Positions 2,077-17,001 of a stretch of 64,000 nucleotides of DNA are shown in pieces (within the stretch, counting starts at the first letter, position 1; each line of letters opens with the position of its first letter). Below the pieces are notes generated by a model. It was not told the origin of the DNA. It made no database searches and saw nothing but the letters and a program-made list of their open reading frames with translations. The translations under genes were made by a program, and so were the position numbers. Origin of the DNA: Escherichia coli (GTDB lineage Bacteria; Pseudomonadota; Gammaproteobacteria; Enterobacterales; Enterobacteriaceae); assembly GCF_030013595.1 (NCBI RefSeq), contig NZ_CP122769.1, one strand, 5' to 3'.

Positions 2077-2955
2077 ATGAAGTTAGCTACGGACCTGGTA
2101 AAAGCTATTTTGATTAGAAATGGCGTTGAACCAGTAAATATAAGCGAATCATCTAAGTTATCTTTGAAACAACCACTGACAGAACTTAAATTCAGTTTAT
2201 ATTTGCGAACTGAGCATTTATCTCACTTCCTACCCGGTTATGTTTATTCTATAAAAGAATGTCCACTGTCATATGACATCGGGATCGAAATTCAGAAAAT
2301 CTTCGAAAGTTTACATTTGTTAAACGAAGAATTTGAATCCCTCGGTTTTGTTTCTGTATGGATAGAAATGCATCAAAGCATTTTTGAACAAAGTCGGTTT
2401 AAGAAAAGTAACTTTACTTTTCGGGAGGAAGAGGTCGAGCTTGCTAAAGGGCTTGTTTGTTCTCACAATTCACAAATAAGTAATGCGGCTTATTTCTGGC
2501 TTCAGCACTTTGAGGAGTTTATGATTTATGTTCGTAATAAGCTTATCGACCTCTTTCGAGAGGCCTATGACCTGATCCTTGGAATGCAGCAAGTATTTTT
2601 CATTCGGGAAAAGGAAGAGCTGTTGAAAACTATAAGTTATGGCGATGAGCTGTATGAGGTGAAATTCATGGCGGCTGAGCTTTACTCTATCGAACAGAAC
2701 TTAAAGTGTTCTGAATCGATAAGTACAAAATCTCAAGCTTCGGCATATATTAACCGCATCCGTGAGTTTGTGCGTTCGGGGTGGAGGCAGGGCTATATAG
2801 TCTGCCATCATAAGCGAAGTAATCAAATTTCATCATTGTCATTACCGATGTACTTGAAAGATACGTCAGGCCGAAGTGCTCGAAAGCGAGTAAAACGTCT
2901 TATATCTTCTACAGTTTGTGGTAGAAATAAAGATTTAGGTCTTACAGATTTTTAA
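2077..2955 (+). CDS. hypothetical protein, paralogue family member 1
   Basis: 292-aa ORF; N-terminal pattern DLVKAILIRNGV shared with ORFs at 3026, 4030, 7147, 8257; preceded by hairpin ccctgatg/catcaggg at 2027-2051. Confidence 0.55.
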   Translation: MKLATDLVKAILIRNGVEPVNISESSKLSLKQPLTELKFSLYLRTEHLSHFLPGYVYSIKECPLSYDIGIEIQKIFESLHLLNEEFESLGFVSVWIEMHQSIFEQSRFKKSNFTFREEEVELAKGLVCSHNSQISNAAYFWLQHFEEFMIYVRNKLIDLFREAYDLILGMQQVFFIREKEELLKTISYGDELYEVKFMAAELYSIEQNLKCSESISTKSQASAYINRIREFVRSGWRQGYIVCHHKRSNQISSLSLPMYLKDTSGRSARKRVKRLISSTVCGRNKDLGLTDF

Positions 2956-2973
2956 TTAAATTATACCCATGTG

Positions 2974-3009
2974 GGGATCACACCCCATATGGGAGTGATC
3001 CCTTTTTTT
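2974..3009 (+). terminator. GC-rich hairpin plus T7 run (terminator-like)
   Basis: gggatcac ... gtgatccc inverted repeat followed by ttttttt. Confidence 0.55.
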
Positions 3010-3025
3010 ATTGAGAGAGGATCAC

Positions 3026-3961
3026 ATGAAAATTATCGAAAAAATCATTAATGCCTTTTTGGTTGTTCAACATAAAAAAATACAGGTTAAAAACATTACA
3101 TTTTTAGACAATGGGCAGGGCATGTTCTCTGGTATGTCTTTTGATGCTGATGTTTCACTGGAGTTTATGTATGAATCAGCAAAAGCATATAGTTCTTGTT
3201 TCTTTGATATTCCCTTTCCAGGTTTTGAAGATGCAAATCTGGAGGAAATTACGAAATTTCAATTAGATGCTTTGAAGCAAAGAAAGAATCATTCTTTCTT
3301 TGTTAACCATTTGAGGTTTCCTATAGTTTTAAGGGAAGGGTGCAAAATCGAAAGAGGAGAAGTCTATTCAATTTCGAATTGCACTTATAATAAAGAAAGA
3401 TTGCAGTATCTTTTTTCTCAGGATATTTACGGTAAGTTGTATAATTCCTTAGAGAAAGAATTAAGCTCGTTTTTCTCATTTATCAATGTTGAGGTGCACG
3501 AGTTGTTAAAAGATGCTGTATGCTTTGCATTAAAAATCCTGAATAAGATATCTTTGGATACACCTGAAAGACTTATTAAAGCTTTTAATTATCGTGACTG
3601 GTATTGTAGTTACGATGTTGAGCTTTTTAGGAAAGGCTTACCTGGTCATATTCTGGAAGAGCTCATTGCTCCAGATATCTTACTTTCAGACCTTAACGGT
3701 TGTAGAAAAATACTTAGAAATGCAAAACGATTTCTAAATGGACATACACAAACCAATTGTGTTTATATTAAATATGAATGGTGGTTGGGGCCTGTTGATA
3801 CCTCACACTCAGCTAAGTTGATGTCTGACAAAGAAATTAATAACCGAAGTGACTTGAAGAATTTTTCAAAGGTCTTTTTCAAAGAGTGTTTAAGTTCTGG
3901 TAAGTCGGAATATGAAAACCATCTTAGTGAAAAAGAACATGCGCTTCGCTATAATTATTAA
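3026..3961 (+). CDS. hypothetical protein, paralogue family member 2
   Basis: ATG at 3026 with RBS agagagg upstream (ORF-track TTG start at 3011 less likely); N-terminus KIINAFLVVQ fits family pattern. Confidence 0.55.
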   Translation: MKIIEKIINAFLVVQHKKIQVKNITFLDNGQGMFSGMSFDADVSLEFMYESAKAYSSCFFDIPFPGFEDANLEEITKFQLDALKQRKNHSFFVNHLRFPIVLREGCKIERGEVYSISNCTYNKERLQYLFSQDIYGKLYNSLEKELSSFFSFINVEVHELLKDAVCFALKILNKISLDTPERLIKAFNYRDWYCSYDVELFRKGLPGHILEELIAPDILLSDLNGCRKILRNAKRFLNGHTQTNCVYIKYEWWLGPVDTSHSAKLMSDKEINNRSDLKNFSKVFFKECLSSGKSEYENHLSEKEHALRYNY

Positions 3962-3974
3962 TTAAAATTATTTT

Positions 3975-4003
3975 CTCCCATAGGGATTTCTCCCTATGGG
4001 AGA
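3975..4003 (+). repeat. 13-bp-arm perfect inverted repeat (hairpin) between paralogues
   Basis: tctcccataggga-ttt-tccctatgggaga. Confidence 0.6.
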
Positions 4004-4029
4004 AATCCCTCTATTAAGAGGGTATTGAA

Positions 4030-4701
4030 ATGAATGCTATACAAAAGTTAGTTGAATCTATTCTTGTTAAAATGGGTTTTGTTGGCGCTGTAGTGGAAAA
4101 TATATATTTGGATTCAAAACCATTTCGGCATATTCGATTTGTGGCTGATATTCCAGTAATATCTTTTCTACCTCATTTGGTGAAATATCTTAAGGGTGCA
4201 GACCATCTTTACAGTGGTAACGATGATTTGCATCCTCTTTTCATTTATTTTTCCGAAGCGGCTACATTAAAAGCAGGTCCTGTAAATCTCGCGAACTTTC
4301 GTTTTGAAGTTTCTATAGCTTCAACTCATTTACGACTGGTCTCAGAGCAGCCTGATTTGCTTTTCAAAGGATTTAACCGGGATAATCTAGAATACGTTTA
4401 TTACCGCTCAGATTTGGCCTCTAGGGATCTTATACTAGGCCTTGTTGAACACGGTTCTCCTTTCATAAAACATCTACATGGACTTATACAAAAGCGAATT
4501 TTAAACGAGTTCTCTCTGATTTTTTCTGTTCTTGAAAAGATTTTAGAAAGCGCGAAGCCACAAATTCTTGCTTGCTTCCATAGTGTTGATTATGAAATGA
4601 ACGTAAAAATAATAGCCGAAGCTATACCTGAAACTGTATCTAATCAGATAGTCACATCTGATTATATAGTTAATGTTAGCGCCAATGATATAAGACTGTA
4701 A
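4030..4701 (+). CDS. hypothetical protein, paralogue family member 3; 3' end probably truncated by IS insertion
   Basis: N-terminus KLVESILVKMGF fits family; stop codon 4699-4701 abuts the IS21-family terminal inverted repeat. Confidence 0.5.
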   Translation: MNAIQKLVESILVKMGFVGAVVENIYLDSKPFRHIRFVADIPVISFLPHLVKYLKGADHLYSGNDDLHPLFIYFSEAATLKAGPVNLANFRFEVSIASTHLRLVSEQPDLLFKGFNRDNLEYVYYRSDLASRDLILGLVEHGSPFIKHLHGLIQKRILNEFSLIFSVLEKILESAKPQILACFHSVDYEMNVKIIAEAIPETVSNQIVTSDYIVNVSANDIRL

Positions 4702-4774
4702 TTCGCCATTTGGGTTGTCCGCTCCACCCAACATGTTGTTTCCTTGAGGTTCTCACACCAGAAAGGACATCGAC

Positions 4775-6744
<1,970 letters not shown>

Positions 6745-6775
6745 TCAAATAGCGGACATTAAAAATGGCGAAAAC

Positions 6776-7080
6776 CGGCCATAAATCTTGGCGTTGACAT
6801 TAATTCTATATCAGATGCGGACAAGTTTATAAATCATGTTCGTCGCTATTTAGCAGGCAGGGTAATGAAGAGGCGGATATACGCTGAATTAGATGTTTGT
6901 GAAGAAACATCAAGTATTTCACTAGTGAACTTAGGATGCTTTACGTCTCCTCTGCTCGTTACGGAATATCAAATGTTTAAGCCACACTCTTCAGGGTTAT
7001 ATCGAAAAGCTATAAACAACTCCTTAAAACAGTTCAAACCAGAAATGCATGTACCTTCTGAAGAACTCTTTTATAATTAA
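6776..7080 (+). pseudogene. possible 3' remnant of the IS-disrupted paralogue
   Basis: Frame is open from the IS right end (6776) through ORF 6865-7080; followed by the same type of hairpin as other family members. Confidence 0.3.
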
Positions 7081-7090
7081 TCTAACCCAT

Positions 7091-7128
7091 CCGGGAACCT
7101 GCTTCCCGGTGGGAAGCACTTCCTTTTT
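7091..7128 (+). repeat. GC-rich hairpin upstream of paralogue 4
   Basis: ccgggaa/ttcccgg and gcttccc/gggaagc arms, then ttttt; conserved with element at 8197-8235. Confidence 0.5.
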
Positions 7129-7146
7129 AGTCATGAGGTAGTGTAA

Positions 7147-8085
7147 ATGTTTAAAGAATCTGACCACGTGGAATTTGTTAGTGCCTTTCTTTATCAAAAT
7201 TTAGGCCTTAATGTTTCCGCTGACGATATAACCGTTCAATTATCTGATACTTCGTTCGACAAAGTAACCTTTGATTACGATGTAGATATCGATAATTTAA
7301 ATTGTATGTTGGATCTCTACATATCTGAGCTAATAAAGCACAACGCATCTTACTCCGATTCTATTCTTTTGAAACAAAAAATAATTTATTTTCTTGGAGT
7401 ATTTAAGAATTTCGGATTTTTTACGTTTGATATTCGCGGATATAGTAATACTTTAAGCCCAGTTAAAGTTATTGATATTGTTTCAATGATTATTAATGAC
7501 TGTGAAGAGTTATCTAAAGCTAATTCTTCTACTGATGCTATAAGAAATCTTTATCTCGATAAAATGAAGGTGGATGGGAAAGTGTTAGTTGCGAAATTTG
7601 CACTTAAACAGTTTTTTCATTCCGACTTTGGTGACTTTATCTCATTTGTCGAGAAAAGAATTACAGATTGTCTTAATGAAACTTTAAGGATTATCAAAGC
7701 TGTTGAACATGGCTTTGTACGTGTAGGGCAGCATAAGATTAATCGCCGTATTAATGATGACTTAAAGTTATGCATTGATTTCAATACTGATGATTATCCG
7801 GCAAATATGCCAGATATATATATTAAGTTTAACGATACATTTGATGGGAACGGGGCGTTATATTGTGACAATGATGCCCTCATATCCCTCTATACCGATG
7901 TTGCTTCAATTATCAATGTGCCGGTGATGATGGAAGTAAGATTGATCAATAAAAGAGGGCGTGTTGTCTGTGATTCTTCGCATTCAACTTACGTATCTCT
8001 CGAAAGTAATGACCGATACAGAGTAACTGATCGCACATTACTAATAACTGAAGCTTTTGACGATTTTCGTAACGCGTCTCAATGA
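7147..8085 (+). CDS. hypothetical protein, paralogue family member 4
   Basis: 312 aa; clear similarity to ORF 8257 (VDGKVLVAKFALKQFF vs VDGQVMIARFALQQFW; ITEAFDDFRN vs VSEVFDNLRN); RBS context gaggtagtgtaaATG. Confidence 0.6.
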   Translation: MFKESDHVEFVSAFLYQNLGLNVSADDITVQLSDTSFDKVTFDYDVDIDNLNCMLDLYISELIKHNASYSDSILLKQKIIYFLGVFKNFGFFTFDIRGYSNTLSPVKVIDIVSMIINDCEELSKANSSTDAIRNLYLDKMKVDGKVLVAKFALKQFFHSDFGDFISFVEKRITDCLNETLRIIKAVEHGFVRVGQHKINRRINDDLKLCIDFNTDDYPANMPDIYIKFNDTFDGNGALYCDNDALISLYTDVASIINVPVMMEVRLINKRGRVVCDSSHSTYVSLESNDRYRVTDRTLLITEAFDDFRNASQ

Positions 8086-8196
8086 TCCTTTTGCTTCAGT
8101 CCAAAAAAGTAACTTTGGTTGGCTGAAGACACTTGTCTATGACAATGTAAAATCTGTCGCTGGCATCTTCTTTTAGCTTAACCAAATTTTTATCTA

Positions 8197-8235
8197 ACCC
8201 AGTGGGGAAGTCGCTTCCCTTCTGGGGCACTTCCT
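8197..8235 (+). repeat. GC-rich hairpin upstream of paralogue 5
   Basis: gggaag-tcg-cttccc; similar to 7083-7125 (shared taaccca, gcttccc, cacttcc). Confidence 0.5.
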
Positions 8236-8256
8236 CTCAAATTCGAGGTAGTGTAT

Positions 8257-9213
8257 ATGACACATTCATCTGATGATAAAAACTATGTCCGAGCAGTTCT
8301 GAGTTATCTTGGCATAGATTTTGATGAGGCGGATATAGTATTAAGTGTTTGCCATTGTCAAAGTGACGAGCTTTCTTTTACCTGTAATATCAAAGCTATT
8401 GAACTCAAGAATGCTGTTGATTTATATGTCGATAGTATCTCTGAGAATGAAATAGAAGCTTTAAACAGAGAATCTTTAAAATCGCGACTCTGTTACTTTC
8501 TTGAGGTGTTTGACGCAGTCTCTGGTCAGTACCTTGAAATTTCAGGAAAACACTTTGCAACTAGTCGTTTTGAATATGATGATGTTTGTAGTGAAGTTCT
8601 TAGCATGTCTAATGATGTTTCTCAGTCGAAAGGTTATGACCGGGATGAATATAACAGACTGATGCAGGTTGATGGTCAGGTTATGATTGCCCGTTTTGCT
8701 TTGCAACAGTTCTGGGATACTCATTTTATTGGACTAATAACATTTGTATCTGAGTCTATAACATCGAGCCTCTATAAAGCTTATGAAACTTTTAGTGATA
8801 TTAGTTTGGCTTGCTATAAACTGAGTGAATATTCTTATTCACGCTCTATCAACAGTGAATTGACCCTTAATATTTCACTTAAAGAAAATGACTTCTGTGA
8901 GGACCTATCTGATTGCTATATGGAAGATGAGGCTTTACCTTCTGGTAGGGTAATTTCTCGACGCAACAATGACTCCATAATAAGTATTTATGAGAGCTAT
9001 GCTGCGGCTTCTTATATTCCGATGATTGCATCTTTGGAAGTCGTTGATGAATACGGCGAAGTGGTTACTGACCTCTGCCATACCGTTTATGTTTCAGAGT
9101 TAACCGGTGGGCGGATTAAAATCCACGACCGTAATGACTTAGTATCTGAAGTTTTCGATAACCTAAGAAATTTAAATCTTGCAGTTGGAGATTCAGTTTC
9201 ACAAGCTGCTTGA
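8257..9213 (+). CDS. hypothetical protein, paralogue family member 5
   Basis: ATG at 8257 in context gaggtagtgtatATG identical in layout to paralogue 4. Confidence 0.6.
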   Translation: MTHSSDDKNYVRAVLSYLGIDFDEADIVLSVCHCQSDELSFTCNIKAIELKNAVDLYVDSISENEIEALNRESLKSRLCYFLEVFDAVSGQYLEISGKHFATSRFEYDDVCSEVLSMSNDVSQSKGYDRDEYNRLMQVDGQVMIARFALQQFWDTHFIGLITFVSESITSSLYKAYETFSDISLACYKLSEYSYSRSINSELTLNISLKENDFCEDLSDCYMEDEALPSGRVISRRNNDSIISIYESYAAASYIPMIASLEVVDEYGEVVTDLCHTVYVSELTGGRIKIHDRNDLVSEVFDNLRNLNLAVGDSVSQAA

Positions 9214-9252: not shown

Positions 9253-9276
9253 GGCACGGTTTCCGTGCCTTTTTTT
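9253..9276 (+). terminator. Rho-independent terminator
   Basis: ggcacgg-ttt-ccgtgcc followed by T7. Confidence 0.65.
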
Positions 9277-9475
9277 GCCTCGCTTACAAGCGTCTACTCC
9301 TCTTCTACCTATCCCACCTTACATCACCACTTAAAATCTATCTTTCTAATTCCATTATCCTTTTCGTAGCCTCTAATGCTCTGGTATGAACATACTCTTT
9401 AAACTCAAAAAAGTGCTATTAACGAAAAAAAATCCCTAAAGAGATTTGTATACTGTTCTCAACCAAGGAGAGCTC

Positions 9476-9751
9476 ATGAATGAACTAAAATCCAAAAACG
9501 AGAACAGTACCAAAAGCAACTTTCCCCCGGTTGATAATCAGTTTTGCTTTTACCATGTTGATTTCAGCATAGAACGACTACTTTCTACGGCCGAGGATCT
9601 CCAGCTTGAGTACATCTTCCAGAAACCTGGAAGTGAAGTAAGAAAGGATTTGGTTGAGCGATTTGAACGTGGAGAGCGCTTTGTTACAGCTTCACACTGT
9701 GACAATTTCTGTGAAATCCTTGGTTGTCAAGGCCATCAGGAAAATGCATAA
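9476..9751 (+). CDS. hypothetical protein
   Basis: ORF with internal ATG at 9476 (track start 9446); no recognisable motif. Confidence 0.4.
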   Translation: MNELKSKNENSTKSNFPPVDNQFCFYHVDFSIERLLSTAEDLQLEYIFQKPGSEVRKDLVERFERGERFVTASHCDNFCEILGCQGHQENA

Positions 9752-9795
9752 ACCCATAAACCTACATTTCCACTTTTAAGGATGTTCACTAAAGA

Positions 9796-10386
9796 ATGAT
9801 TGGAGAAAGTATTTTTGACTGGGTAATTTACGGAATATCCATTTTGATATTTGCCTCAGCACTAATTGAAGGAAAGACAACTCGCTACCCAGCACTTTTT
9901 TTCTATGGGAGTTTAATTTTAATGTTAATCCTGATAGTTGCTGGAGGCCTTAACTGGTGGTTCTACAGGTCAAAATATGGCGCAGTAATCGTTATCTTCA
10001 CAGTGGTTTCTTTACTGATGACTCGATTCCGCCTGGTCATATATAAATTAAGATTAAGAAAGTTAGTTTCAGAGATCAGATTTCGTATAAAAACGGGTTT
10101 TCGTATAATTCTTGTTTTGTCGGATAATGAGGATGAGCGTAATGTTCTGCTGTCTATGCTTAGCAACGTATTGCCAGAGCAAACGCTTATTCACACGCGT
10201 GATGCTCTCGGACCTCATTCAGGGCCTATCCTAAAAGCTCTTGAGCTACATCATCAACAGGGAACAGGTTACATACTCGTCTGTGAACAACAAATCTCAG
10301 CGCGTACGTGGTTGAGTATCGTAGAAAATGGGAAACCTGATACATCTATAGCTGTTAATTTTCATTCGATCCCAGAAATGGAGTGA
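9796..10386 (+). CDS. hypothetical membrane protein (about 3 N-terminal TM helices)
   Basis: Hydrophobic segments ISILIFASALI, LILMLILIVAGGL, AVIVIFTVVSLL. Confidence 0.5.
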   Translation: MIGESIFDWVIYGISILIFASALIEGKTTRYPALFFYGSLILMLILIVAGGLNWWFYRSKYGAVIVIFTVVSLLMTRFRLVIYKLRLRKLVSEIRFRIKTGFRIILVLSDNEDERNVLLSMLSNVLPEQTLIHTRDALGPHSGPILKALELHHQQGTGYILVCEQQISARTWLSIVENGKPDTSIAVNFHSIPEME

Positions 10387-10393
10387 TTTTTCA

Positions 10394-10651
10394 ATGAGTA
10401 GAACCGTTTCACAAAGTGTCACAGAAGATTGTCTTTTTGATACCCGCACACAAGTCAGATTACAACTAAGTCGAAGCGTTCATAAAACGCTGGCATCTGC
10501 TAAAGAAATTTTACAGGGAAGGGGGGTTGATTCGGTCTCTATTGAAGATCTTGTGCGAGCCTGTCTTGAAGAGAACCAGCCAATTGATCTCGCCTCACTT
10601 TACCTTGAAAATCTCTTAAAACAGAAAGGTACCAGCATTTGCGATTTTTAG
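10394..10651 (+). CDS. hypothetical protein
   Basis: 85-aa ORF, 8-nt spacing from upstream gene. Confidence 0.4.
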   Translation: MSRTVSQSVTEDCLFDTRTQVRLQLSRSVHKTLASAKEILQGRGVDSVSIEDLVRACLEENQPIDLASLYLENLLKQKGTSICDF

Positions 10652-10724
10652 TGTTTTCAAACCTATTAGATAAAATGCCGGTTGTGTTTATATAACATCA
10701 ATAATTTCATGCAACAGGTAAAAC

Positions 10725-11261
10725 ATGAGTACTCAAAAGCAACTTTCCAGAACAACCGGCACTGAACGTATGTTTAAGGAAGAGCTGGCGTTATCCTTAA
10801 TTTGTTGGGTTTTCACCAGTCCATTTACCAACTGGACCGATAAAGTCTTCAGTGGTATTGAAGTTCCGTCTGAAGGACCGTCAACATTACTGGGTGAGGC
10901 TGAAAAATTCTTTCGTTTTGTCGTTAATGAAGAAGGCTACGACGCAGGAAGGGCTGCTCTTGGTCTTGACCTATGTTGTTTTTCACTTCCGTCGTGTTTG
11001 TTCCCGGACGCTGCCCTGTCTGAGGAAGAGGTTATGAGTAAGTTAACCGGAGAAGTTATCCATGGGATTCTTCTTTCCTTACCTGAATTTATTGATATGC
11101 CAGAAGTGCTCGCTTACCAGGTCAGGGATGAAATTCTTGCTTTTAACACTCGCTGTGGAGACGGGATCTTTCATGGTTGGAACACGGCTTCAGAATTGTG
11201 GAAGTTTGAAATCTTTCCCCGCACCACCATCATGATGCAGCATACTTCGGCAATACATTAA
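10725..11261 (+). CDS. hypothetical protein
   Basis: 178-aa ORF. Confidence 0.45.
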   Translation: MSTQKQLSRTTGTERMFKEELALSLICWVFTSPFTNWTDKVFSGIEVPSEGPSTLLGEAEKFFRFVVNEEGYDAGRAALGLDLCCFSLPSCLFPDAALSEEEVMSKLTGEVIHGILLSLPEFIDMPEVLAYQVRDEILAFNTRCGDGIFHGWNTASELWKFEIFPRTTIMMQHTSAIH

Positions 11262-11277
11262 AATTAGGCGGGGCAGA

Positions 11278-11724
11278 ATGCATAAAAAACTTTTTCTTCT
11301 CGAATGGAAACCCTGTCAGAGCCGCGTATGGGCCGGTTGGATGGCCCTGTGGTTGACTATCAGTTTTCTGATGTTATCTGCCTTGCTTATGACAGATCAT
11401 CTCCTGAACAAAGTCATCCTGCCGCCAACATGGTTGTTGATCTGGTTTTCGCCAATGCTGGGGTTTTTGATAAAAGTTCGCGTCGTCGAAACTCAACATT
11501 TCCTGGAGCATGACCTCTGTGTTGCAGGTTTCTCTTTTTACCGCTGGAAGAGGTTAGTTTCTCCCGGGCTTTGGTCAGTTGACTGTATAAATGGTCGTTT
11601 TCGCCTCAATCGGATCACCCAGGTGGGTAAGACTATCCACTATCCATGGCGTCTCCATTATCATCCTTTGTTCATGAGCCCTATCGAACATAAATCGCAT
11701 GCTGTGAAAGCTGTTTCAAAATGA
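11278..11724 (+). CDS. hypothetical membrane protein
   Basis: Hydrophobic N-terminal half (WMALWLTISFLMLSALLM). Confidence 0.4.
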   Translation: MHKKLFLLEWKPCQSRVWAGWMALWLTISFLMLSALLMTDHLLNKVILPPTWLLIWFSPMLGFLIKVRVVETQHFLEHDLCVAGFSFYRWKRLVSPGLWSVDCINGRFRLNRITQVGKTIHYPWRLHYHPLFMSPIEHKSHAVKAVSK

Positions 11725-11796
11725 CTTCTTTAGAGGTTTACATGACATTTATGTTCTGCAAGGTCAGCCAGGGCAGCAAAATTGATTTGAAATAAC

Positions 11797-12777
11797 ATGA
11801 GCCTGGAGAAACGTATGAGTTATGACGATTTGCCCTATTTTCGTGACCAGATTCTGGAACGTATCGACTCGCTTAAGTGTTTTCTTTCGAACACCCCCCC
11901 GCTGATGGCAAACCTGATGACTGTCTCCACCGTATCTCGAACAGAAGAGCGACTGAAGCAGGTTAAACCCATCAGGGTTAGTGTTAAAGACGATGCTTCG
12001 GTTGAGGAAATTATTCAGGCACTTACTGACATCTGTGTGGATGACATAGAGTCATTAAGTCATGATTCCACCAAAGTGACCACTAAATACCCGGGTCTTA
12101 TCATTGTCCCAGAAAGAGCAGATCTTCTCGAAAGCTTGATCACATCTATAAATGAAGCAAAAAATGATTTTGCTGCGGCAATGAGGCGTATCGATAATAA
12201 AAAGAATGTCCGTTTTGATAAAGTGCACAAGAAGCTCCCGGGCCTTGTCGCTATGCACTCAACAAGAAATGTCCTTTTCATCAAGTCCCAGCTTAAAAAA
12301 GTTACTTTTTCATGGCGGCTAAACCGAAACCAGGAAGTTAAAACAGCAGAGCAACTTGTGAGTTTGTTGGAGCGCAGGAGAGCCTCAGAAGTAAAAAATG
12401 TAGCAACTACCAATTTGAATGTCGTGTCTAATATCGATAAGGCTTTACACCGTCTTGAATTTCACCCACTGAAGCAGGGCGAATCTTATCGCCTTTGTCG
12501 AACTAACTCTTTCCCTGTTCCGATTGCTCACATTTTTGCATTTAGGCCTGAAGGGCAGGAACGAAACGGGAATAAATATGCTGAGACTGATTATTCAGTA
12601 GTAAAAGCATCCTTGCCCATTTTCGCAGCAGGCAACATACCTCAATTAAAAACGCTCTCTGACTGGGCTCCTGAAAACAGCCAGGGCCCGTCCAACCAAC
12701 GGAAGCTGAGCCTGAAATATACAGAACTCGTGCCGGGGGCTGAGCTGGGCATTTTCATTGTCAGCCCCGAAAATTAA
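11797..12777 (+). CDS. Tus-like replication terminus-binding protein homologue
   Basis: Segment FDKVHKKLPGLVAMHSTRNVLFIK..FSWRLNRN recalls the E. coli Tus region [29 protein letters not shown] (from memory); similar length. Confidence 0.5.
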   Translation: MSLEKRMSYDDLPYFRDQILERIDSLKCFLSNTPPLMANLMTVSTVSRTEERLKQVKPIRVSVKDDASVEEIIQALTDICVDDIESLSHDSTKVTTKYPGLIIVPERADLLESLITSINEAKNDFAAAMRRIDNKKNVRFDKVHKKLPGLVAMHSTRNVLFIKSQLKKVTFSWRLNRNQEVKTAEQLVSLLERRRASEVKNVATTNLNVVSNIDKALHRLEFHPLKQGESYRLCRTNSFPVPIAHIFAFRPEGQERNGNKYAETDYSVVKASLPIFAAGNIPQLKTLSDWAPENSQGPSNQRKLSLKYTELVPGAELGIFIVSPEN

Positions 12778-12786
12778 GGAACAACA

Positions 12787-13692
12787 ATGCAATGGATTTC
12801 CACAGCCAGCCAGAAAATCGATGAGCGTCTCTATCGTGTCTGCGTCTGGGTAAAAAAATATCACGCTGATGCGATTAACCGCGTTGTGCTTACCGTTGAT
12901 CTAAGTAAAGCCCGACATGACCCTGACGAGGACCAGGTAAGAGCAGAGCTGCTGTGCGGCCATTATTTTTTGCTTCGTAAGGAAAACGCTTCGAACTCTG
13001 CGCCTGACGATCAAAAGTTTGCTTTCCTGCCTGACGGGCGCAATCTGTGTTGGCAGACCGCAACCCCGGTGCTTCAGCATCTCCTGCTCAATAAAAACGT
13101 TCCTGAGTCGCTGAGGTTGCTTACGGACTACATACATATGCGTCTGGCCAGGCTGACAATGGTACCAATGTCCGGAACCATCATGAACGAGGCTCTGCTG
13201 GACAGCATCAGCTGGGTTAAGGTGGATTTGACCTACTTCTGGCAGTATGAACAGCTCAGCTCTCATCTGGGACCCATCCAGATAACCCACAAGGCACTAG
13301 TACGCTTCGGGCATCTGGCAAAGAATGATGAAAACTCCAGTGCCATAAGAATCCTGCGTCAGCGTCTGTCTTCAGAATTCTTACAAGAATTTCAGATGGC
13401 TGAGGATGAGCTAAAGCGCAAACAGTCGTTGATGGGCACCATGGACGTGAAAATGCTGTTTCATGCTCATTACCCCAGCCAGAAGATGCTGGTGGCTCGA
13501 TATAAAAATGGTTGGGTAATGGTGGATTGTTTTCTGTTTCATCATACCAAACCTAAGAAAAAAGCAAAAAACAAAACTACTGTGGCTAAGCCTCAACTTA
13601 AAGAGACTAAAAGAGAAGGGAGTGAAAATGGAACTGGGCATTATGGTGTGCATCGTGTTGTTACTCTCCGTGGCGGCGGCGTGGATCAGTAA
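12787..13692 (+). CDS. hypothetical protein
   Basis: 301-aa ORF with Lys-rich C-terminus. Confidence 0.5.
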   Translation: MQWISTASQKIDERLYRVCVWVKKYHADAINRVVLTVDLSKARHDPDEDQVRAELLCGHYFLLRKENASNSAPDDQKFAFLPDGRNLCWQTATPVLQHLLLNKNVPESLRLLTDYIHMRLARLTMVPMSGTIMNEALLDSISWVKVDLTYFWQYEQLSSHLGPIQITHKALVRFGHLAKNDENSSAIRILRQRLSSEFLQEFQMAEDELKRKQSLMGTMDVKMLFHAHYPSQKMLVARYKNGWVMVDCFLFHHTKPKKKAKNKTTVAKPQLKETKREGSENGTGHYGVHRVVTLRGGGVDQ

Positions 13693-13972
13693 TAAGACAG
13701 TTGATTTGCTCGAAAGATTCTATTTCAAGCGTCCGCTGAGCATGGAGTACGCGGCATGGCTACGTGTAATGTGTGCAGGCTTGTTATTGGTTTTTATTCA
13801 GGTTGCTCCACAATTTACACTTCTGTATACCCTTAAACTTGTCACGCTTATTAATCTTGGAATCCAGACAATGAAATTAAATGGCGTGTACAAATATAAA
13901 AGAACGGGAATTTTGCCTCCGGGAGGGGCACTCTCTAATCTCACCAGACTTAACCCGTTCAAGAAAAAATAA
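13628..13972 (+). CDS. small hypothetical membrane protein
   Basis: Two hydrophobic helices (MVCIVLLLSVAAAWI, MCAGLLLVFIQ). Confidence 0.35.
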   Translation: MELGIMVCIVLLLSVAAAWISNKTVDLLERFYFKRPLSMEYAAWLRVMCAGLLLVFIQVAPQFTLLYTLKLVTLINLGIQTMKLNGVYKYKRTGILPPGGALSNLTRLNPFKKK

Positions 13973-13993
13973 AGTTATGCGCCCGTGAGGGCG

Positions 13994-15184
13994 CTATTCA
14001 TCAAAGGCATTTCGCATAAGCTTGATCATTGCTTTTTTACCAGCTTCAATATTACGAATGTAGCGCATAACCATTTCTTCATTCGACCAGTTCCCCATTT
14101 CCATAATCTGTGGTAGCGAGTAACCTTCAATATTTAGCTGTATCGCTCCGCCTACACGAACGCTGTGCCCTGTCCAGTAACGAGTTTTAGTCTCATTTGG
14201 ATAAAGCTCATTCCACATCTCTTTAAATGCTCGTAAAAGGGAATTTTTGCTGAGCATACCGGCATCGTCCACAGTGTCTTCTTCATCTTCATCTTCATCG
14301 TTCAGAAGACTTTGCTTAGCACGATAGGGTAGGTTATGCCTTTTAAGAAGTTCAGATAGCTCATTCCCCTTACTCCGAAGCTTCCAGCCGGGTGGCATAT
14401 AGCCTGTATCATGGAAATTTACGGCCTGGAAAAGGAATTCATCCGGATGACTGTGCTGATCCATTTTCACGAGGTTCATCAATCTCAAGAGGCAGTTAGT
14501 TAACTGACGTGTCAGCCGGTAGGTAAGAAGTGTACTAATGTTCGTTTTTGTACGGTATACCGTCAGGTTAAATTCACCGGTCATACTATCCAGAGACAGA
14601 TCTTTCAGACGTATACGTCGAATTTCGGATGAACGGAGCAGTGTTTCAAAGCCTGTCCAGATCAGGCACAGGTCACGAAGTTTACGAACTGAGTTTGTAG
14701 TACTGCGTAACTTTATCAGAGCCTTGAGATCGCCAATAAGAAAGGGAGTTGCCTGTTTAGTCGTCTTTCGCTTCCGGGCTTCCGATTGTTTTAAGGCTTC
14801 CAGCATGTACCATGCTTCAGACGTAATAATCCCGGGCAGGTTAAGCCCTTTTTTATGGATACTATTTAAGGCCTGAAGACAGCTGTTTATGCTGCTTCGT
14901 GACAATTTGCCTTCAAGATGCCCCATAAACGCAAGCAGAGCGTCCTCAGACACGGGGAGCGAACTTACTGGCCAGTCTGTATGCAACCGGGCATTCGCCA
15001 GATACCATTCGTTCCATACTCGTAGCCAGTGCAGATAGGTTTTAGCAGTGTTGTATCTCAGATGGGAAAAGTAACGGATCAAGCGTGAAAGCTGTTTATC
15101 ATGGTTGCCGAACGTTTCCAGCTGCTGATGCAATTCGCTTTCCGAAAACTGTCTGATCACTGATTGATTCTTCATCCTGCTCAC
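13994..15184 (-). CDS. tyrosine site-specific recombinase (phage integrase family)
   Basis: C-terminal catalytic region GHSVRVGGA..LPQIMEMGNWSNEEMVMRYIRN (R..H..R..Y signature). Confidence 0.75.
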   Translation of the reverse strand: MSRMKNQSVIRQFSESELHQQLETFGNHDKQLSRLIRYFSHLRYNTAKTYLHWLRVWNEWYLANARLHTDWPVSSLPVSEDALLAFMGHLEGKLSRSSINSCLQALNSIHKKGLNLPGIITSEAWYMLEALKQSEARKRKTTKQATPFLIGDLKALIKLRSTTNSVRKLRDLCLIWTGFETLLRSSEIRRIRLKDLSLDSMTGEFNLTVYRTKTNISTLLTYRLTRQLTNCLLRLMNLVKMDQHSHPDEFLFQAVNFHDTGYMPPGWKLRSKGNELSELLKRHNLPYRAKQSLLNDEDEDEEDTVDDAGMLSKNSLLRAFKEMWNELYPNETKTRYWTGHSVRVGGAIQLNIEGYSLPQIMEMGNWSNEEMVMRYIRNIEAGKKAMIKLMRNAFDE

Positions 15185-15345: not shown

Positions 15346-15558
15346 ATGTCTGACACAAAGCAGTCTTATTTAATGAAATTCCGTAAGTGTAGTTCGTTCG
15401 AAACGCTCGAAAAAGTATTTGAAAGGTTATGTGAAAAAAACTCGGGTGTCGCCTCTCTTGAAATTTCTGGTGCTTATGATCATCGTAAAGCCGAACTGAC
15501 AATGAAAAAGTTATATGACAAAGTTCCTGCGAGTGTGTGGACCTTTGTTCGCGAGTAA
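15346..15558 (+). CDS. hha: Hha/YmoA-family expression modulator
   Basis: YLMKFRKCSSFETLEKVFE ... DHRKAELTMKKLYDKVPASVW closely matches Hha (..LRRC..ETLERV.. ADHRLAELTMNKLYDKIP..VW). Confidence 0.85.
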   Translation: MSDTKQSYLMKFRKCSSFETLEKVFERLCEKNSGVASLEISGAYDHRKAELTMKKLYDKVPASVWTFVRE

Positions 15559-15888: not shown

Positions 15889-17001
15889 TTGAATCATTAT
15901 CAAAAACGGGGTGCAGCCATGCGTAAGAGTTATACATTTGGTATTCCATTTGGACTCCAGCGTGAATCAGGACTCTTTTTAGATATTACAGAGGTCAGCC
16001 GGGGTATTGACTGTAACTGCATCTGCCCCGCTTGCAAAACTGATCTGTTAGCAAAGCAGGGGGAGGTCAAGCTTTGGCATTTCTCACACAGTACAGCTGT
16101 AGCCGGTGACTGTGATGGTCTGATGGAAGCCATCCGGGGAAAGATTATTGAAGTCATCAACGAGCACCAGGTTCTTGGTTTCCCAAATCTTCTCGCTGGC
16201 GACGATGGTGGGCCGGTTTCACTGAATGAGGTTAGTGGAAGCGGCAGTATGTTCGGAGGCACAGCTGATCTGTTCGTAAAGGTTAATGATTTATGTGTGG
16301 CCGTCTTTCTGGACAGGGATCGCAGCATTTCAGAGAAGTTAACCTTTGACCATCTTCATCCTTCCGAAAGAGTTGCCGCATTGCGTATCGATCTTCCTGA
16401 TATTGAATATGAAATCAGTCAGGTGCAGCTCGGGCGACGTAAAACAACATACAGTGAGTGCATTGAAAGCCTGATCATTGATGAGACCAGTTCCCGGGAA
16501 TGGCTATATCATCCATTAATGCATGAACTTGAATCTGAACCTCTTCAGGAGTATCGGGGACGGGAGCCTTCAGAGGAAGGGCCTCTTCTTCAGCGCCTTG
16601 CTGACTGTAAGATGAAATTGCCTGATATCCTTCCGGGCAGTCATAACGCGCTAGTCAGGTTACAGCAGGATACGATTGTATGTCTGTGTCGGTTAACGGT
16701 TCGGGCTTATGACATCGCTCAGACCGATGAATTTCCTTTGTTCCTTCGCTATTTCAGGTTGCACTGCCTGGAAAACAGCGAACATGTCAGTTACGAAAGA
16801 CTGATCTGCTGGCAGGAAATGATTTCAAAAACCCAGGAAGGCCAGTCCTTGACACAAAACGAACTTGAATATCTTCATGAGATTGTCCGCATCGCCTTTT
16901 ACAATCACCGGCTTAACAATGTCAGTATTTCAGATGTTAAAAACCATGACACTGGAAAGAAGAGCGGCAGGGTAGAGTCACAAAACTATTCACTTTTATA
17001 A
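15889..17001 (+). CDS. hypothetical protein with CoiA-like N-terminal zinc-finger/nuclease-type motif
   Basis: CNCICPACKTDLLAKQGEVKLWHFSH resembles the CoiA-family C-P-x-C ... HFxH motif. Confidence 0.4.
   Translation: MNHYQKRGAAMRKSYTFGIPFGLQRESGLFLDITEVSRGIDCNCICPACKTDLLAKQGEVKLWHFSHSTAVAGDCDGLMEAIRGKIIEVINEHQVLGFPNLLAGDDGGPVSLNEVSGSGSMFGGTADLFVKVNDLCVAVFLDRDRSISEKLTFDHLHPSERVAALRIDLPDIEYEISQVQLGRRKTTYSECIESLIIDETSSREWLYHPLMHELESEPLQEYRGREPSEEGPLLQRLADCKMKLPDILPGSHNALVRLQQDTIVCLCRLTVRAYDIAQTDEFPLFLRYFRLHCLENSEHVSYERLICWQEMISKTQEGQSLTQNELEYLHEIVRIAFYNHRLNNVSISDVKNHDTGKKSGRVESQNYSLL

What the first reader, a model, noticed from the sequence alone, without database searches (positions are those of the whole stretch)
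9446..13972. Uncharacterised co-directional gene block with membrane proteins
Eight closely spaced plus-strand ORFs, several with predicted TM helices, lack recognisable motifs except one Tus-like gene. The block sits between the paralogue array and a tyrosine recombinase, a layout compatible with an integrated module of unknown function.
Basis: inference. Interest (0 to 1): 0.45.

Follow-up and report, generated by a model that had tools for sequence, protein, structure and literature searches.

The report
Conserved IncHI plasmid operon with Tus
The eight genes are real, but they are a long-known, conserved and still uncharacterised part of the backbone of IncHI resistance plasmids, built around a plasmid version of the replication-fork-stopping protein Tus, and not a separately integrated module.

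Summary
Window 9476-13972 carries eight co-directional genes. Three are membrane proteins (o2, o5, o8). One is Tus-like (Pfam Ter, E 4.6e-19). None of the other seven matches Pfam, NCBIfam, PADLOC or PHROGs.

The "integrated module" reading fails. The same genes, in the same order and place, occur in IncHI1, IncHI2, IncHI3, IncHI5 and two unnamed IncHI-like lineages. That place is after the toprim gene or paralogue array and before a convergent Cre-like recombinase and hha. Composition matches the rest of the plasmid. There are no att-like repeats or tRNA genes.

All eight genes are under purifying selection (pN 0.13-0.37, pS 0.64-0.87). They form one hairpin-bounded transcription unit. In R27 they are ORFs R0184-R0192, and published deletions did not affect plasmid stability.

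Tus and the next gene, o7, co-occur almost 1:1 in about 2,700 plasmids, including non-conjugative Klebsiella virulence plasmids. A low-confidence o7 model resembles RNase H. The locus sits where the plasmid's GC skew and gene orientation switch.

Best guess, inferred only: an accessory fork-arrest or terminus module beside a dimer-resolution recombinase. No Ter site was found. The block is already known and of low interest.

The parts
9253..9276 (+). Rho-independent terminator of the upstream paralogue-array unit (GGCACGG-TTT-CCGTGCC followed by T7). It marks the 5' boundary of the block's transcription unit.
   Evidence: Terminator scan. Fold energy -12.5 kcal/mol, z -3.6. Equivalent terminators sit at the same place in IncHI1 and IncHI3/HI5.
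9440..9457 (+). An 18-nt element, AGAGATTTGTATACTGTT, just 5' of the o1 ribosome-binding site. It contains a -10-like TATACT and is the candidate promoter or operator of the block.
   Evidence: 100% identical between IncHI1 and IncHI2 in an otherwise unalignable spacer. Unique in the window and in the whole plasmid. IncHI3/HI5 have GATTTAATAGT plus an SD at the same place. Its function is inferred.
9476..9751 (+). o1: 91-aa soluble protein with a C-terminal C-x2-F-x5-GC-x-GH motif. R27 R0192 equivalent.
   Evidence: 51% identity to IncHI1. The C-terminal 33 aa are 45-52% identical to IncHI3/HI5. The motif is seen directly in the sequences. No family hit.
9796..10386 (+). o2: 196-aa membrane protein with three N-terminal TM helices and a ~95-aa cytoplasmic beta-alpha-beta domain. 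R27 R0191 equivalent.
10394..10651 (+). o3: 85-aa soluble protein. R27 R0190 equivalent.
   Evidence: 65% identity to IncHI1 with identical length. Only a sub-threshold TetR_N hit, E 0.076. Its C-terminus is replaced by an IS21 insertion in pJMA2.
10725..11261 (+). o4: 178-aa soluble protein. R27 R0189 equivalent.
   Evidence: 57% identity to IncHI1 and 25% to IncHI5. No family or PDB sequence match.
11278..11724 (+). o5: 148-aa protein with two TM helices and a beta-rich C-terminal domain. R27 R0188 equivalent.
   Evidence: Disrupted by an IS3-family element in pMS8345A.
11815..12777 (+). Plasmid-type Tus homologue (320 aa; alternative start at 11797). R27 R0186 equivalent.
   Evidence: Pfam Ter E 4.6e-19. 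NCBIfam equivalog cut-offs not reached. Collinear with E. coli Tus over its full length at 17% identity, with K89, R139, H144 and P148 invariant. [quoted passage not shown]
12787..13692 (+). o7: 301-aa soluble protein that always follows tus. It is among the two most conserved genes of the block. The N-terminal half is modelled as an RNase H-like fold. R27 R0185 equivalent.
13628..13972 (+). o8: 114-aa protein with two TM helices, translationally overlapping o7. R27 R0184 equivalent.
   Evidence: 78% identity to IncHI1, dN/dS ~0.08, and the same 65-nt overlap in IncHI1. TM prediction. Sub-threshold TcpE hit, E 0.045.
13979..13994 (.). GC-rich hairpin (GCGCCC-GTGA-GGGCGC) between the convergent stop codons of o8 and the recombinase gene. 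Probably a shared, bidirectional terminator.
   Evidence: Conserved in IncHI1 with only the loop changed. Fold energy -13.1 and -13.7 kcal/mol on the two strands.
13994..15184 (-). Neighbouring Cre-like tyrosine recombinase (R27 R0183), convergent with the block.
   Evidence: Pfam Phage_integrase E 2e-13. phmmer to P1 Cre E 2e-23. Present at this position in IncHI1, HI2, HI5, pK2044, L014 and L021.
15346..15558 (+). Neighbouring plasmid hha (R27 R0182).
   Evidence: Pfam HHA E 9e-19. RefSeq annotation.

Best explanation
SHOWN. The block is an ancestral, vertically inherited backbone operon of the IncHI plasmid family (R27 ORFs R0184-R0192). It is one transcription unit of eight real genes. A terminator hairpin bounds it upstream. 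A hairpin shared with a convergent Cre-like recombinase gene bounds it downstream.

INFERRED. The block has two halves.

1. The distal half is tus-o7-o8. I take it to be a plasmid-encoded fork-arrest (replication terminus) module. The divergent Tus would bind an unidentified plasmid Ter site and stop the rightward fork coming from the RepHI2A/RepHI2 region. The stop would fall at the end of the 58-kb co-oriented gene arm, next to the Cre-like dimer-resolution recombinase. The fork would be halted before it runs head-on into the oppositely transcribed genes beyond. o7 has a possible RNase H-like fold without an obvious DEDD active site. Together with the small membrane protein o8, it would be a dedicated partner of Tus.

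2. The proximal half is o1-o5: three soluble proteins and two membrane proteins. Their function remains unknown. This half is largely retained in conjugative plasmids and often lost in non-conjugative derivatives.

The whole block is accessory, not essential for plasmid stability under laboratory conditions.
For: Backbone status:
- 1,417 plasmid records match the DNA, 853 of them at >=99% identity, and the top hits inspected are typed IncHI2A.
- The same gene order is seen in IncHI1, IncHI3, IncHI5-like and two unnamed lineages.
- Per-gene identities are, and purifying selection.
- Composition is ordinary for the plasmid.

Operon:
- A terminator lies at 9253-9269, followed by the conserved -10-like 18-mer.
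- The conserved distal hairpin is at 13979-13994.

Tus:
- Pfam Ter E 4.6e-19.
- Full-length collinearity with E. coli Tus. H144 is invariant. F140 and G149 are kept in IncHI1/HI2. That these residues form the C6-lock pocket is from my own knowledge of Mulcair et al. 2006.
- Plasmid-borne tus genes are documented (PMC6549158).

Tus-o7 linkage:
- Tus is in 2,725 records and o7 in 1,416 + 1,314 records, with near-identical mobility breakdowns.
- The two genes overlap by 4 nt in IncHI3/HI5 and L021.
- The pair is retained in the non-mobilizable pK2044, about 6 kb from its RepB replicon.

Terminus-like location:
- Genes at 1-58.5 kb are nearly all on the + strand, starting at RepHI2A, and orientation flips at the recombinase.
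- Cumulative G-C is lowest at ~2 kb and highest at ~61 kb.
- Third-position skew is higher in genes co-oriented with the presumed forks, p = 0.013.
- The neighbouring recombinase is Cre-like. P1 Cre resolves plasmid dimers (established knowledge).
- The asymmetric terminus of R6K is a precedent (established knowledge).

Accessory status:
- R27 deletions of R0183-R0186, singly and combined, and Del17, which covers the o1-o5 equivalents, left stability unchanged (PMC4853401).
- Natural IS insertions occur at o3 and in o5.
Against: - No Ter site was identified. The window has no E. coli-type Ter beyond chance.
- The single Ter-like site on the whole IncHI2 plasmid scores within the range of shuffles, lacks the G/C6 pair, and is not conserved in IncHI1 or IncHI3.
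- No conserved motif lies upstream of tus.
- Similarity to E. coli Tus is very low (phmmer E 0.08). NCBIfam equivalog cut-offs are missed by far.
- F140 and G149 are not conserved in IncHI3/HI5, and the position aligned to R198 is not conserved.
- The skew switch coincides with a switch in gene orientation. Past 61 kb the plasmid is a mosaic, so skew cannot locate a terminus by itself.
- The o7 model is of low confidence (pLDDT 60.8), and no conserved acidic triad is evident.
- Deleting the R27 tus or o7 orthologue gave no stability phenotype.
- One lineage (L022) keeps o7 but has only an 88-aa ORF where tus should be.
- Distant o7-like proteins occur without Tus.
Confidence: 0.5

Rival explanations
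1. Conjugation- or establishment-associated accessory operon. The block would be the distal end of the long co-directional Tra2-par-primase gene arm. Its small membrane and soluble proteins would act during or just after transfer, for example in the envelope or on incoming DNA. Tus would block a helicase or polymerase during transfer-associated DNA synthesis.
For: - The block is co-oriented with, and downstream of, Tra2, the AAA/DUF3150/VWA genes and the toprim gene.
- o2 is present in 1,805 conjugative plasmids but only 234 non-mobilizable ones. Tus and o7 are in about 1,850 conjugative and 825 non-mobilizable plasmids.
- pK2044 lost o1-o3 together with the transfer genes.
- o8 has a sub-threshold similarity to the conjugation membrane protein family TcpE, E 0.045.
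- The R27 deletions were assayed for stability only, not for transfer.
Against: - The block has its own terminator-bounded transcription unit.
- Tus, o7 and o8 are retained in hundreds of non-mobilizable virulence plasmids.
- No gene matches any known T4SS or transfer family.
- The non-mobilizable records are largely one clonal plasmid family, so the o2 loss may be a single IS-mediated deletion.
Confidence: 0.2
2. The Tus-like protein is a sequence-specific DNA roadblock or regulator unrelated to replication termination, for example transcriptional control or protection of a site. It would work with an RNase H-fold partner that acts on R-loops or RNA-DNA hybrids.
For: - The protein is extremely divergent from chromosomal Tus and misses the equivalog cut-offs.
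- No Ter site was found.
- o7 resembles RNase H in fold.
- The locus neighbours the nucleoid-associated regulator hha.
Against: - The alignment is collinear with Tus over the full length, and the lock-pocket residue H144 is conserved.
- I know of no Tus family member with a role outside fork arrest (my knowledge).
- The o7 model is of low confidence and lacks a clear catalytic triad.
Confidence: 0.15
3. One reading: a foreign module integrated between the paralogue array and the tyrosine recombinase, possibly delivered by that recombinase.
For: The block is adjacent to a tyrosine recombinase. Seven of its eight genes have no known family. Lineage-specific extra ORFs occur at two slots inside or next to the block.
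Against: - Synteny is conserved in six diverged lineages, with backbone-level divergence.
- Composition is ordinary.
- No tRNA gene and no flanking direct or inverted repeats of note.
- The recombinase is Cre-like, convergent and itself conserved.
Confidence: 0.03
4. Anti-phage defence or anti-defence island.
For: The genes are small and uncharacterised, some encode membrane proteins, and they sit on a large conjugative plasmid.
Against: No PADLOC hit at E <= 1 for any of the eight proteins. The content is fixed rather than variable across lineages. No nuclease, NTPase or sensor domain was detected.
Confidence: 0.04

Closest known systems
R27 (IncHI1) ORFs R0184-R0192 and their R478 / IncHI2 backbone counterparts
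   Same: These are the same genes in the same order: o8 = R0184, o7 = R0185, tus = R0186, and the o5-o1 side lies within R27 Del17. The window's copy is 100% identical to many IncHI2 plasmids.
   Different: Nothing material. IncHI1 has one extra 91-aa ORF (R0187) between o5 and tus. The assignment of R0188-R0192 to o5-o1 rests on coordinates and gene order, not on an alignment to R27 itself.
Chromosomal Tus-Ter replication fork trap of E. coli / Enterobacterales (PF05472; PDB 1ECR, 2I06)
   Same: The sixth gene belongs to the Pfam Ter family and aligns with E. coli Tus along its whole length. K89 and H144 are conserved, and F140 and G149 are conserved in IncHI1/HI2.
   Different: Identity is only 17-23%. 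The NCBIfam equivalog cut-offs are not met. No Ter site was found, and no TerB-like site lies upstream of the gene. The gene always comes with two partner genes (o7, o8), which the one chromosomal tus locus inspected, E. coli K-12 (flanked by rstB and fumC), lacks.
Plasmid-borne 'mobile' tus genes (Galli et al. 2019, PMC6549158)
   Same: This is a plasmid-encoded Tus in a gamma-proteobacterial plasmid. It belongs to the class proposed as the source from which chromosomal tus was domesticated.
   Different: That paper gives phylogeny only. It describes no partners, sites or function. I did not place the IncHI protein in their tree.
R6K / R1 / R100 plasmid ter sites (host Tus-dependent, asymmetric terminus)
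   Same: Functional analogy only: a fork barrier placed asymmetrically from the origin that orders or limits plasmid replication (established knowledge). The IncHI2 tus locus lies ~57 kb from RepHI2A at a skew switch.
   Different: Those plasmids carry E. coli-type Ter sites and use the host Tus. Here the plasmid encodes its own divergent Tus, and no E. coli-type Ter is conserved.
Phage P1 Cre-lox plasmid dimer resolution
   Same: The convergent neighbour is Cre-like, E 2e-23. Placing a dimer-resolution recombinase next to a terminus protein mirrors the chromosomal dif/Ter arrangement (inference).
   Different: No lox-like site was identified. Deletion of R27 R0183 did not reduce stability. 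The recombinase is not part of the eight-gene block.

Membership tests
Tus / Ter-binding protein family (Pfam PF05472) | Significant match to the family profile above the curated threshold | tested here: met
   69 bits against a cut-off of 22, E 4.6e-19, covering profile positions 10-208 of 296.
Tus / Ter-binding protein family (Pfam PF05472) | Equivalog of chromosomal Tus (NCBIfam TIGR02648 / NF002810 cut-offs) | tested here: not met
   20.9 bits against 178.3, and 53.1 bits against 323. It is a family member but not an equivalog.
Tus / Ter-binding protein family (Pfam PF05472) | Full-length collinearity and conservation of DNA-contact and C6-lock residues (K89, F140, H144, G149, R198; residue roles are from my knowledge of Kamada 1996 and Mulcair 2006) | tested here: inconclusive
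   The alignment is collinear to the C-terminus. K89 and H144 are invariant. F140 and G149 are kept in IncHI1/HI2 but are S and W in IncHI3/HI5. The R198 column holds K or Q. Alignment at 17-23% identity is uncertain.
Tus / Ter-binding protein family (Pfam PF05472) | A cognate Ter site on the replicon | tested here: inconclusive
   No E. coli-type Ter beyond chance in the window. The one plasmid-wide hit is within shuffle range and not conserved. No conserved motif upstream of tus. A divergent site cannot be excluded.
Tus / Ter-binding protein family (Pfam PF05472) | Polar arrest of replication forks | not testable with these tools
   Needs 2D gels, marker-frequency analysis or an in vitro helicase-block assay.
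IncHI plasmid core backbone | Presence in the same order and position in the different IncHI subgroups, with divergence like the rest of the backbone | tested here: met
   Seen in IncHI2, IncHI1, IncHI3, IncHI5-like, L014 and L021. Identities are 51-78% to IncHI1 and 18-31% to IncHI3/HI5. o3 and o8 in IncHI3/HI5 are positional equivalents only.
Integrated mobile module (island, cassette or integrative element) | Variable presence, compositional anomaly, flanking repeats or att sites, tRNA target, and an integrase oriented with the cargo | tested here: not met
   The block is present in every lineage examined. GC is 0.436 and delta* is 56, inside the plasmid's own range. No notable flanking repeats. 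No tRNA gene. The recombinase is Cre-like and convergent.
RNase H-like superfamily (for o7) | RNase H-like beta-beta-beta-alpha-beta-alpha-beta core | tested here: inconclusive
RNase H-like superfamily (for o7) | Conserved acidic catalytic residues (DEDD/DDE) | tested here: inconclusive
   The invariant acidic residues are E48, D49, E54 and E66, at or after helix 1. None is invariant in strand 1 or after strand 4. No structural superposition was available to map them.
Known anti-phage defence systems (PADLOC-DB) | Match to any defence protein model | tested here: not met
   No hits at E <= 1 for any of the eight proteins.

The most novel reading that the evidence does not exclude
Plasmid-type Tus may not be a stand-alone terminator protein. 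It may be the DNA-binding subunit of a conserved three-gene module, Tus plus an RNase H-fold protein (o7) plus a small membrane protein (o8). This module would define and process a dedicated plasmid terminus next to a Cre-like resolvase. It would be the ancestral state from which the solitary chromosomal Tus of Enterobacterales was later domesticated.
Probability: 0.12. Interest if true: 0.6.

Novelty: already known. Interest (0 to 1): 0.22.

Why it matters
IncHI plasmids carry mcr-1, NDM and typhoid multidrug resistance. About two thirds of their backbone ORFs have no known function (PMC4853401). Showing that this block is ordinary conserved backbone removes a false lead: it is not an island or a cargo module.

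The useful residue is a sharper, testable question. A divergent Tus is strictly linked to two partner genes in about 2,700 sequenced plasmids, and it lies at the plasmid's skew and orientation switch. Yet no site, activity or phenotype is known for it. If plasmid Tus is the ancestor of the chromosomal fork trap (PMC6549158), working out how this module operates would show how the fork trap originated.

Tried and rejected
1. E. coli-type Ter search. Pattern GNRNGTTGTAAYKA in the window gave 1 hit against 2 expected. A PWM built from ten Ter sites that I recalled from memory was run over the rebuilt 233-kb IncHI2 plasmid. It gave one hit, AATATTTAAGTTGTAACTAATAT at 156,225, downstream of trhY. 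Its score of 19.3 compares with a shuffle maximum of 19.6, and it has T instead of G at position 6. The site is conserved within IncHI2 only. It is absent at the syntenic spot in pHCM1 and pNDM-MAR. I rejected it as evidence.

2. A conserved TerB-like or operator motif upstream of tus across five lineages: none. The 16-nt inverted repeat at 11686-11756 was not seen in the other lineages.

3. The search for related loci with the o7 profile on genome contigs found nothing.

5. Profile or sequence searches of the PDB for o7, o2 and o4 gave nothing significant.

6. Rfam on the block gave only sub-threshold chance hits.

7. The PADLOC, PHROGs and NCBIfam libraries gave nothing beyond Tus.

8. The Foldseek afdb50 library was unavailable.

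9. Paper searches for functional work on R0184-R0192, IncHI2 TraDIS and pMS8345A returned nothing relevant. The supplements held for the R27 paper PMC6764697 do not list these ORFs.

10. Distant o7-like proteins (E 1e-8 to 1e-3) have no Pfam domain. The two contexts examined lack Tus, so they neither extend nor explain the module.

11. P0045 / L015 is a frameshift-ridden assembly and was ignored.

Full report
WHAT IS THERE. Listing ORFs over 7-17 kb shows eight + strand ORFs exactly where the finding places them. Using the RefSeq starts from a 100%-identical plasmid, they are:
- o1 9476-9751
- o2 9796-10386
- o3 10394-10651
- o4 10725-11261
- o5 11278-11724
- a Tus-like gene 11815-12777
- o7 12787-13692
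- o8 13628-13972

Hydropathy gives three TM helices in o2 and two each in o5 and o8. The other five proteins are soluble. Pfam recognises only the sixth gene (PF05472 Ter, E 4.6e-19). NCBIfam, PADLOC and PHROGs add nothing. Upstream lies a tandem array of ~310-aa paralogues. In this window an IS21-family element interrupts that array. Downstream lie a convergent tyrosine recombinase and then hha and a CoiA-like gene.

WHERE IT COMES FROM. Megablast of the block finds 1,417 plasmid records, 853 of them at >=99% identity, in Escherichia, Salmonella, Enterobacter, Klebsiella and other genera. The top hits inspected are typed IncHI2A / MOBH / MPF_F. The window is thus a piece of an R478-type IncHI2 plasmid.

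IS IT AN INTEGRATED MODULE? No.
- tblastn with the Tus-like protein finds it at ~59% identity in IncHI1 plasmids and ~25% in Klebsiella IncFIB/IncHI1B (IncHI3) and IncHI5-like plasmids.
- In each of those lineages the neighbourhood is the same: AAA ATPase, DUF3150, VWA, toprim, one or two small genes, then a paralogue array in IncHI1/HI2 only.
- This is followed by a small ORF, a ~196-aa ORF, a ~85-aa ORF, a ~150-178-aa ORF and a ~140-aa ORF, then Tus, a 250-300-aa ORF and a ~110-aa ORF.
- A convergent tyrosine recombinase (replaced by an IS1 element in the IncHI3 locus examined) and hha come next.
- Two further unnamed lineages from public assemblies show the same order.
- tblastn of the eight proteins gives 51-78% identity to IncHI1. 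Six of the eight give 18-31% identity to IncHI3/HI5, in order.
- GC content (0.436) and dinucleotide signature are inside the range of random 4.5-kb windows of the same plasmid and resemble Tra1 and Tra2.
- There is no tRNA gene and no meaningful flanking repeat.

The block is ancestral IncHI backbone. Lineage-specific extra ORFs do occur, at two fixed slots: between o5 and tus, and between o8 and the recombinase. This hints that the block consists of two sub-units, o1-o5 and tus-o7-o8.

ARE THE ORFS GENES, AND IS IT AN OPERON? Against IncHI1, pN is 0.13-0.37 while pS is 0.64-0.87, which is saturated. Lengths are identical for four of the eight genes. o7 and o8 are the most constrained, with dN/dS about 0.1.

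A strong terminator hairpin with a T-run ends the upstream unit at 9253-9276. Equivalent terminators occupy the same place in IncHI1 and IncHI3/HI5. In the otherwise unalignable spacer that follows, one 18-nt stretch is 100% identical between IncHI1 and IncHI2: AGAGATTTGTATACTGTT at 9440-9457, just 5' of the o1 Shine-Dalgarno sequence. It contains a -10-like TATACT and is unique in the plasmid.

At the other end, a GC hairpin at 13979-13994 sits between the convergent stop codons of o8 and the recombinase. It is conserved in IncHI1 with only the loop changed. The consensus scan reported only two weak terminator-like matches inside the block (9681-9705 and 12948-12960), none comparable to the boundary hairpins. 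I infer one 4.5-kb transcription unit. This was not tested experimentally.

WHAT IS ALREADY KNOWN. In R27 these are ORFs R0184 (o8), R0185 (o7) and R0186 (Tus homologue). The o5-o1 equivalents lie within the interval 163,001-168,600 (R0187-R0198). The recombinase is R0183 and hha is R0182 (Table S2 of PMC4853401). My assignment of individual R0188-R0192 numbers rests on order and coordinates.

Tassinari et al. deleted R0183, R0184, R0185 and R0186 singly and in combinations. They also deleted the whole 163,001-168,600 interval. None of these reduced R27 stability in E. coli MG1655. Only the incC repeats did. Transfer was not assayed.

Natural plasmids also tolerate IS insertions at the end of o3 (pJMA2) and in o5 (pMS8345A). 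An IncHI2 annotation paper mentions the tus gene and 'a potential ter site' without experiments (PMC5923156). Galli et al. document plasmid-borne tus genes and propose that chromosomal tus was domesticated from them (PMC6549158). I found no functional study of the IncHI Tus or of any other gene in the block.

THE TUS-LIKE PROTEIN. It is a true but very divergent family member.
- Pfam is clearly above threshold. The NCBIfam equivalog models are far below theirs.
- phmmer against E. coli Tus chains gives E 0.08.
- A MAFFT alignment of E. coli Tus with four plasmid Tus proteins is collinear to the C-terminus at 17-23% identity.
- K89, R139, H144, P148 and W172 are invariant in that alignment.
- F140 and G149 are kept in IncHI1/HI2 but not in IncHI3/HI5. 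The R198 column is not conserved.
- That F140, H144 and G149 line the cytosine-6 lock pocket is from my own knowledge of the E. coli structure.

I could not find its binding site. There is no E. coli-type Ter in the window beyond chance. One Ter-like 14-mer exists on the whole plasmid, but it is statistically marginal, lacks G6 and is not conserved outside IncHI2. No shared motif lies upstream of tus.

THE PARTNERS.
- Plasmid-type Tus occurs in 2,725 PLSDB records (1,848 conjugative, 824 non-mobilizable, 53 mobilizable).
- The two o7 types together occur in 1,416 + 1,314 records (1,851 conjugative, 825 non-mobilizable, 54 mobilizable). That is essentially one-to-one.
- tus and o7 are 9 nt apart here and overlap by 4 nt in IncHI3/HI5 and L021. 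o8 overlaps or abuts o7.
- The non-mobilizable Klebsiella virulence plasmid pK2044 has lost o1-o3 and everything upstream to IS elements. It keeps o4-like, o5-like, tus, o7, o8, the recombinase and hha, about 6 kb from its RepB replicon.
- By contrast o2 is found in 1,805 conjugative but only 234 non-mobilizable records.
- These counts are dominated by clonal plasmid families, so they are descriptive rather than independent events.

The o7 family is tiny. It has 30 clusters among 5.8 billion and 52 representatives at E <= 1e-3 among 1.84 billion. None has a Pfam model.

The o2 model (pLDDT 70.6) shows three long helices plus a four-stranded beta-alpha domain with no informative structural neighbour.

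LOCATION ON THE REPLICON. I rebuilt a complete, closely related IncHI2 plasmid, pM160133_p1 (233 kb), from six fetched pieces.
- RepHI2A lies at position 1 and RepHI2 at 217-218 kb.
- From 2 kb to 58.5 kb nearly all genes are on the + strand: Tra2, par, AAA/VWA/toprim, the paralogue array and this block.
- Orientation flips at the recombinase.
- From about 170 to 233 kb most genes are on the - strand.
- Cumulative G-C is minimal at ~2 kb and maximal at ~61 kb, immediately after tus, the recombinase and hha.
- I separated coding-strand effects from replication effects. Genes co-oriented with the presumed forks have higher third-position GC skew than anti-oriented ones: about +0.02 against -0.07, Mann-Whitney p = 0.013, n = 75 against 14.

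This fits bidirectional replication from the rep region with a right arm ending near the block. The evidence is weak, because skew and gene orientation are confounded and the plasmid beyond 61 kb is a mosaic of accessory DNA. The neighbouring recombinase is Cre-like (E 2e-23 to P1 Cre), the type of enzyme P1 uses to resolve plasmid dimers (established knowledge).

MOST LIKELY MECHANISM. Shown: this is a conserved, selected, hairpin-bounded backbone operon; Tus and o7(-o8) are linked; and the block is dispensable for stability in R27.

Inferred: tus-o7-o8 is a plasmid-encoded fork-arrest module. It would mark the end of the rightward replication arm beside a dimer-resolution recombinase. This is analogous to the chromosomal Ter/dif region and to the asymmetric terminus of R6K. 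It would spare the fork a head-on encounter with the oppositely oriented genes beyond. o1-o5 remain of unknown role and may be linked to the conjugative lifestyle.

I put about 0.9 on the backbone and operon statements, and about 0.35-0.4 on the fork-arrest mechanism. The 0.5 given is a compromise between the two.

The main rival is a transfer- or establishment-associated role (0.2). The stability-only assays of the R27 deletions do not address it. The integrated-module reading is effectively excluded.

VERDICT. The finding is a correct description of a known, uncharacterised stretch of IncHI backbone. It is not a new kind of element, and most of it cannot be assigned a function with present tools. 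Interest is low. The one thread worth pulling is the strict Tus-o7-o8 association in the plasmid lineage of Tus.

Noticed in passing
window 4775-6744: An IS21-family element (istA 390 aa with rve and Mu-transposase C domains; istB 266 aa, IstB_IS21 E 1e-88). It is GC-rich (~0.55) and is inserted into one member of the paralogue array, leaving a truncated 223-aa ORF at 4030-4701. It is absent from pM160133_p1.
   Followed up: partly
window 2077-9213: A tandem array of five or six ~290-320-aa paralogous ORFs with no Pfam match. The array is present in IncHI1, IncHI2 and lineages L014 and L021, but absent from IncHI3/HI5, where the block directly follows the post-toprim genes.
   Followed up: partly
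window 9440-9457: An 18-nt sequence, AGAGATTTGTATACTGTT, that is 100% conserved between IncHI1 and IncHI2 within an otherwise unalignable spacer. It is unique in the plasmid and contains a -10-like TATACT directly upstream of the o1 ribosome-binding site. It is a candidate promoter or operator.
   Followed up: partly
window 13979-13994: A conserved GC hairpin (GCGCCC-nnnn-GGGCGC) between the convergent stop codons of o8 and the Cre-like recombinase gene. IncHI1 keeps the stem and changes the loop.
   Followed up: yes
window 11725-11814 and 13973-13993 (slots); L002 6637-6912; L014 6452-7072 and 9227-10041; L021 5379-6032 and 8282-9127; L004 8793-10204: There are two fixed insertion slots for lineage-specific genes. 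One lies between o5 and tus (91-aa R0187 in IncHI1, a DUF2913 protein in L014, a 217-aa ORF in L021). The other lies between o8 and the recombinase (one to four extra ORFs in IncHI5, pK2044, L014 and L021).
   Followed up: no
L008 35634-35656 (pM160133_p1 156,225-156,247; outside the window): The only E. coli-like Ter core on the IncHI2 plasmid (AAGTTGTAACTAAT) lies downstream of trhY in Tra1. It has T instead of G at Ter position 6, is conserved within IncHI2, and is absent from the syntenic spacer of pHCM1 and pNDM-MAR. It is possibly the 'potential ter site' mentioned in PMC5923156.
   Followed up: yes
L016 1295-4049 (pJMA2) and L017 2353-3566 (pMS8345A): Natural IS insertions occur inside the block in otherwise complete plasmids typed as conjugative. 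IS21 (ISSso4-like) replaces the 3' end of o3. An IS3-family element disrupts o5.
   Followed up: partly
R27 168,601-175,050 (literature; corresponds to the region upstream of the window's block): Tassinari et al. could not obtain deletion 18 (R0199-R0205) despite repeated attempts, whereas every other non-replicon interval was deletable. Judged from coordinates alone (not verified), the paralogue/toprim side may therefore hold something essential or toxic when unbalanced.
   Followed up: no
L022 6768-7786: In one IncHI-like lineage (GCA_001280945.1 contig) o7 is kept but only an 88-aa ORF stands where tus should be. The downstream o8, recombinase and hha are replaced by a TonB-receptor / NRPS-PKS cluster.
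   Followed up: no
window 15889-17001: A 370-aa CoiA_N-domain protein follows hha. In pM160133_p1 this gene is split by an IS66 element that the window lacks.
   Followed up: partly
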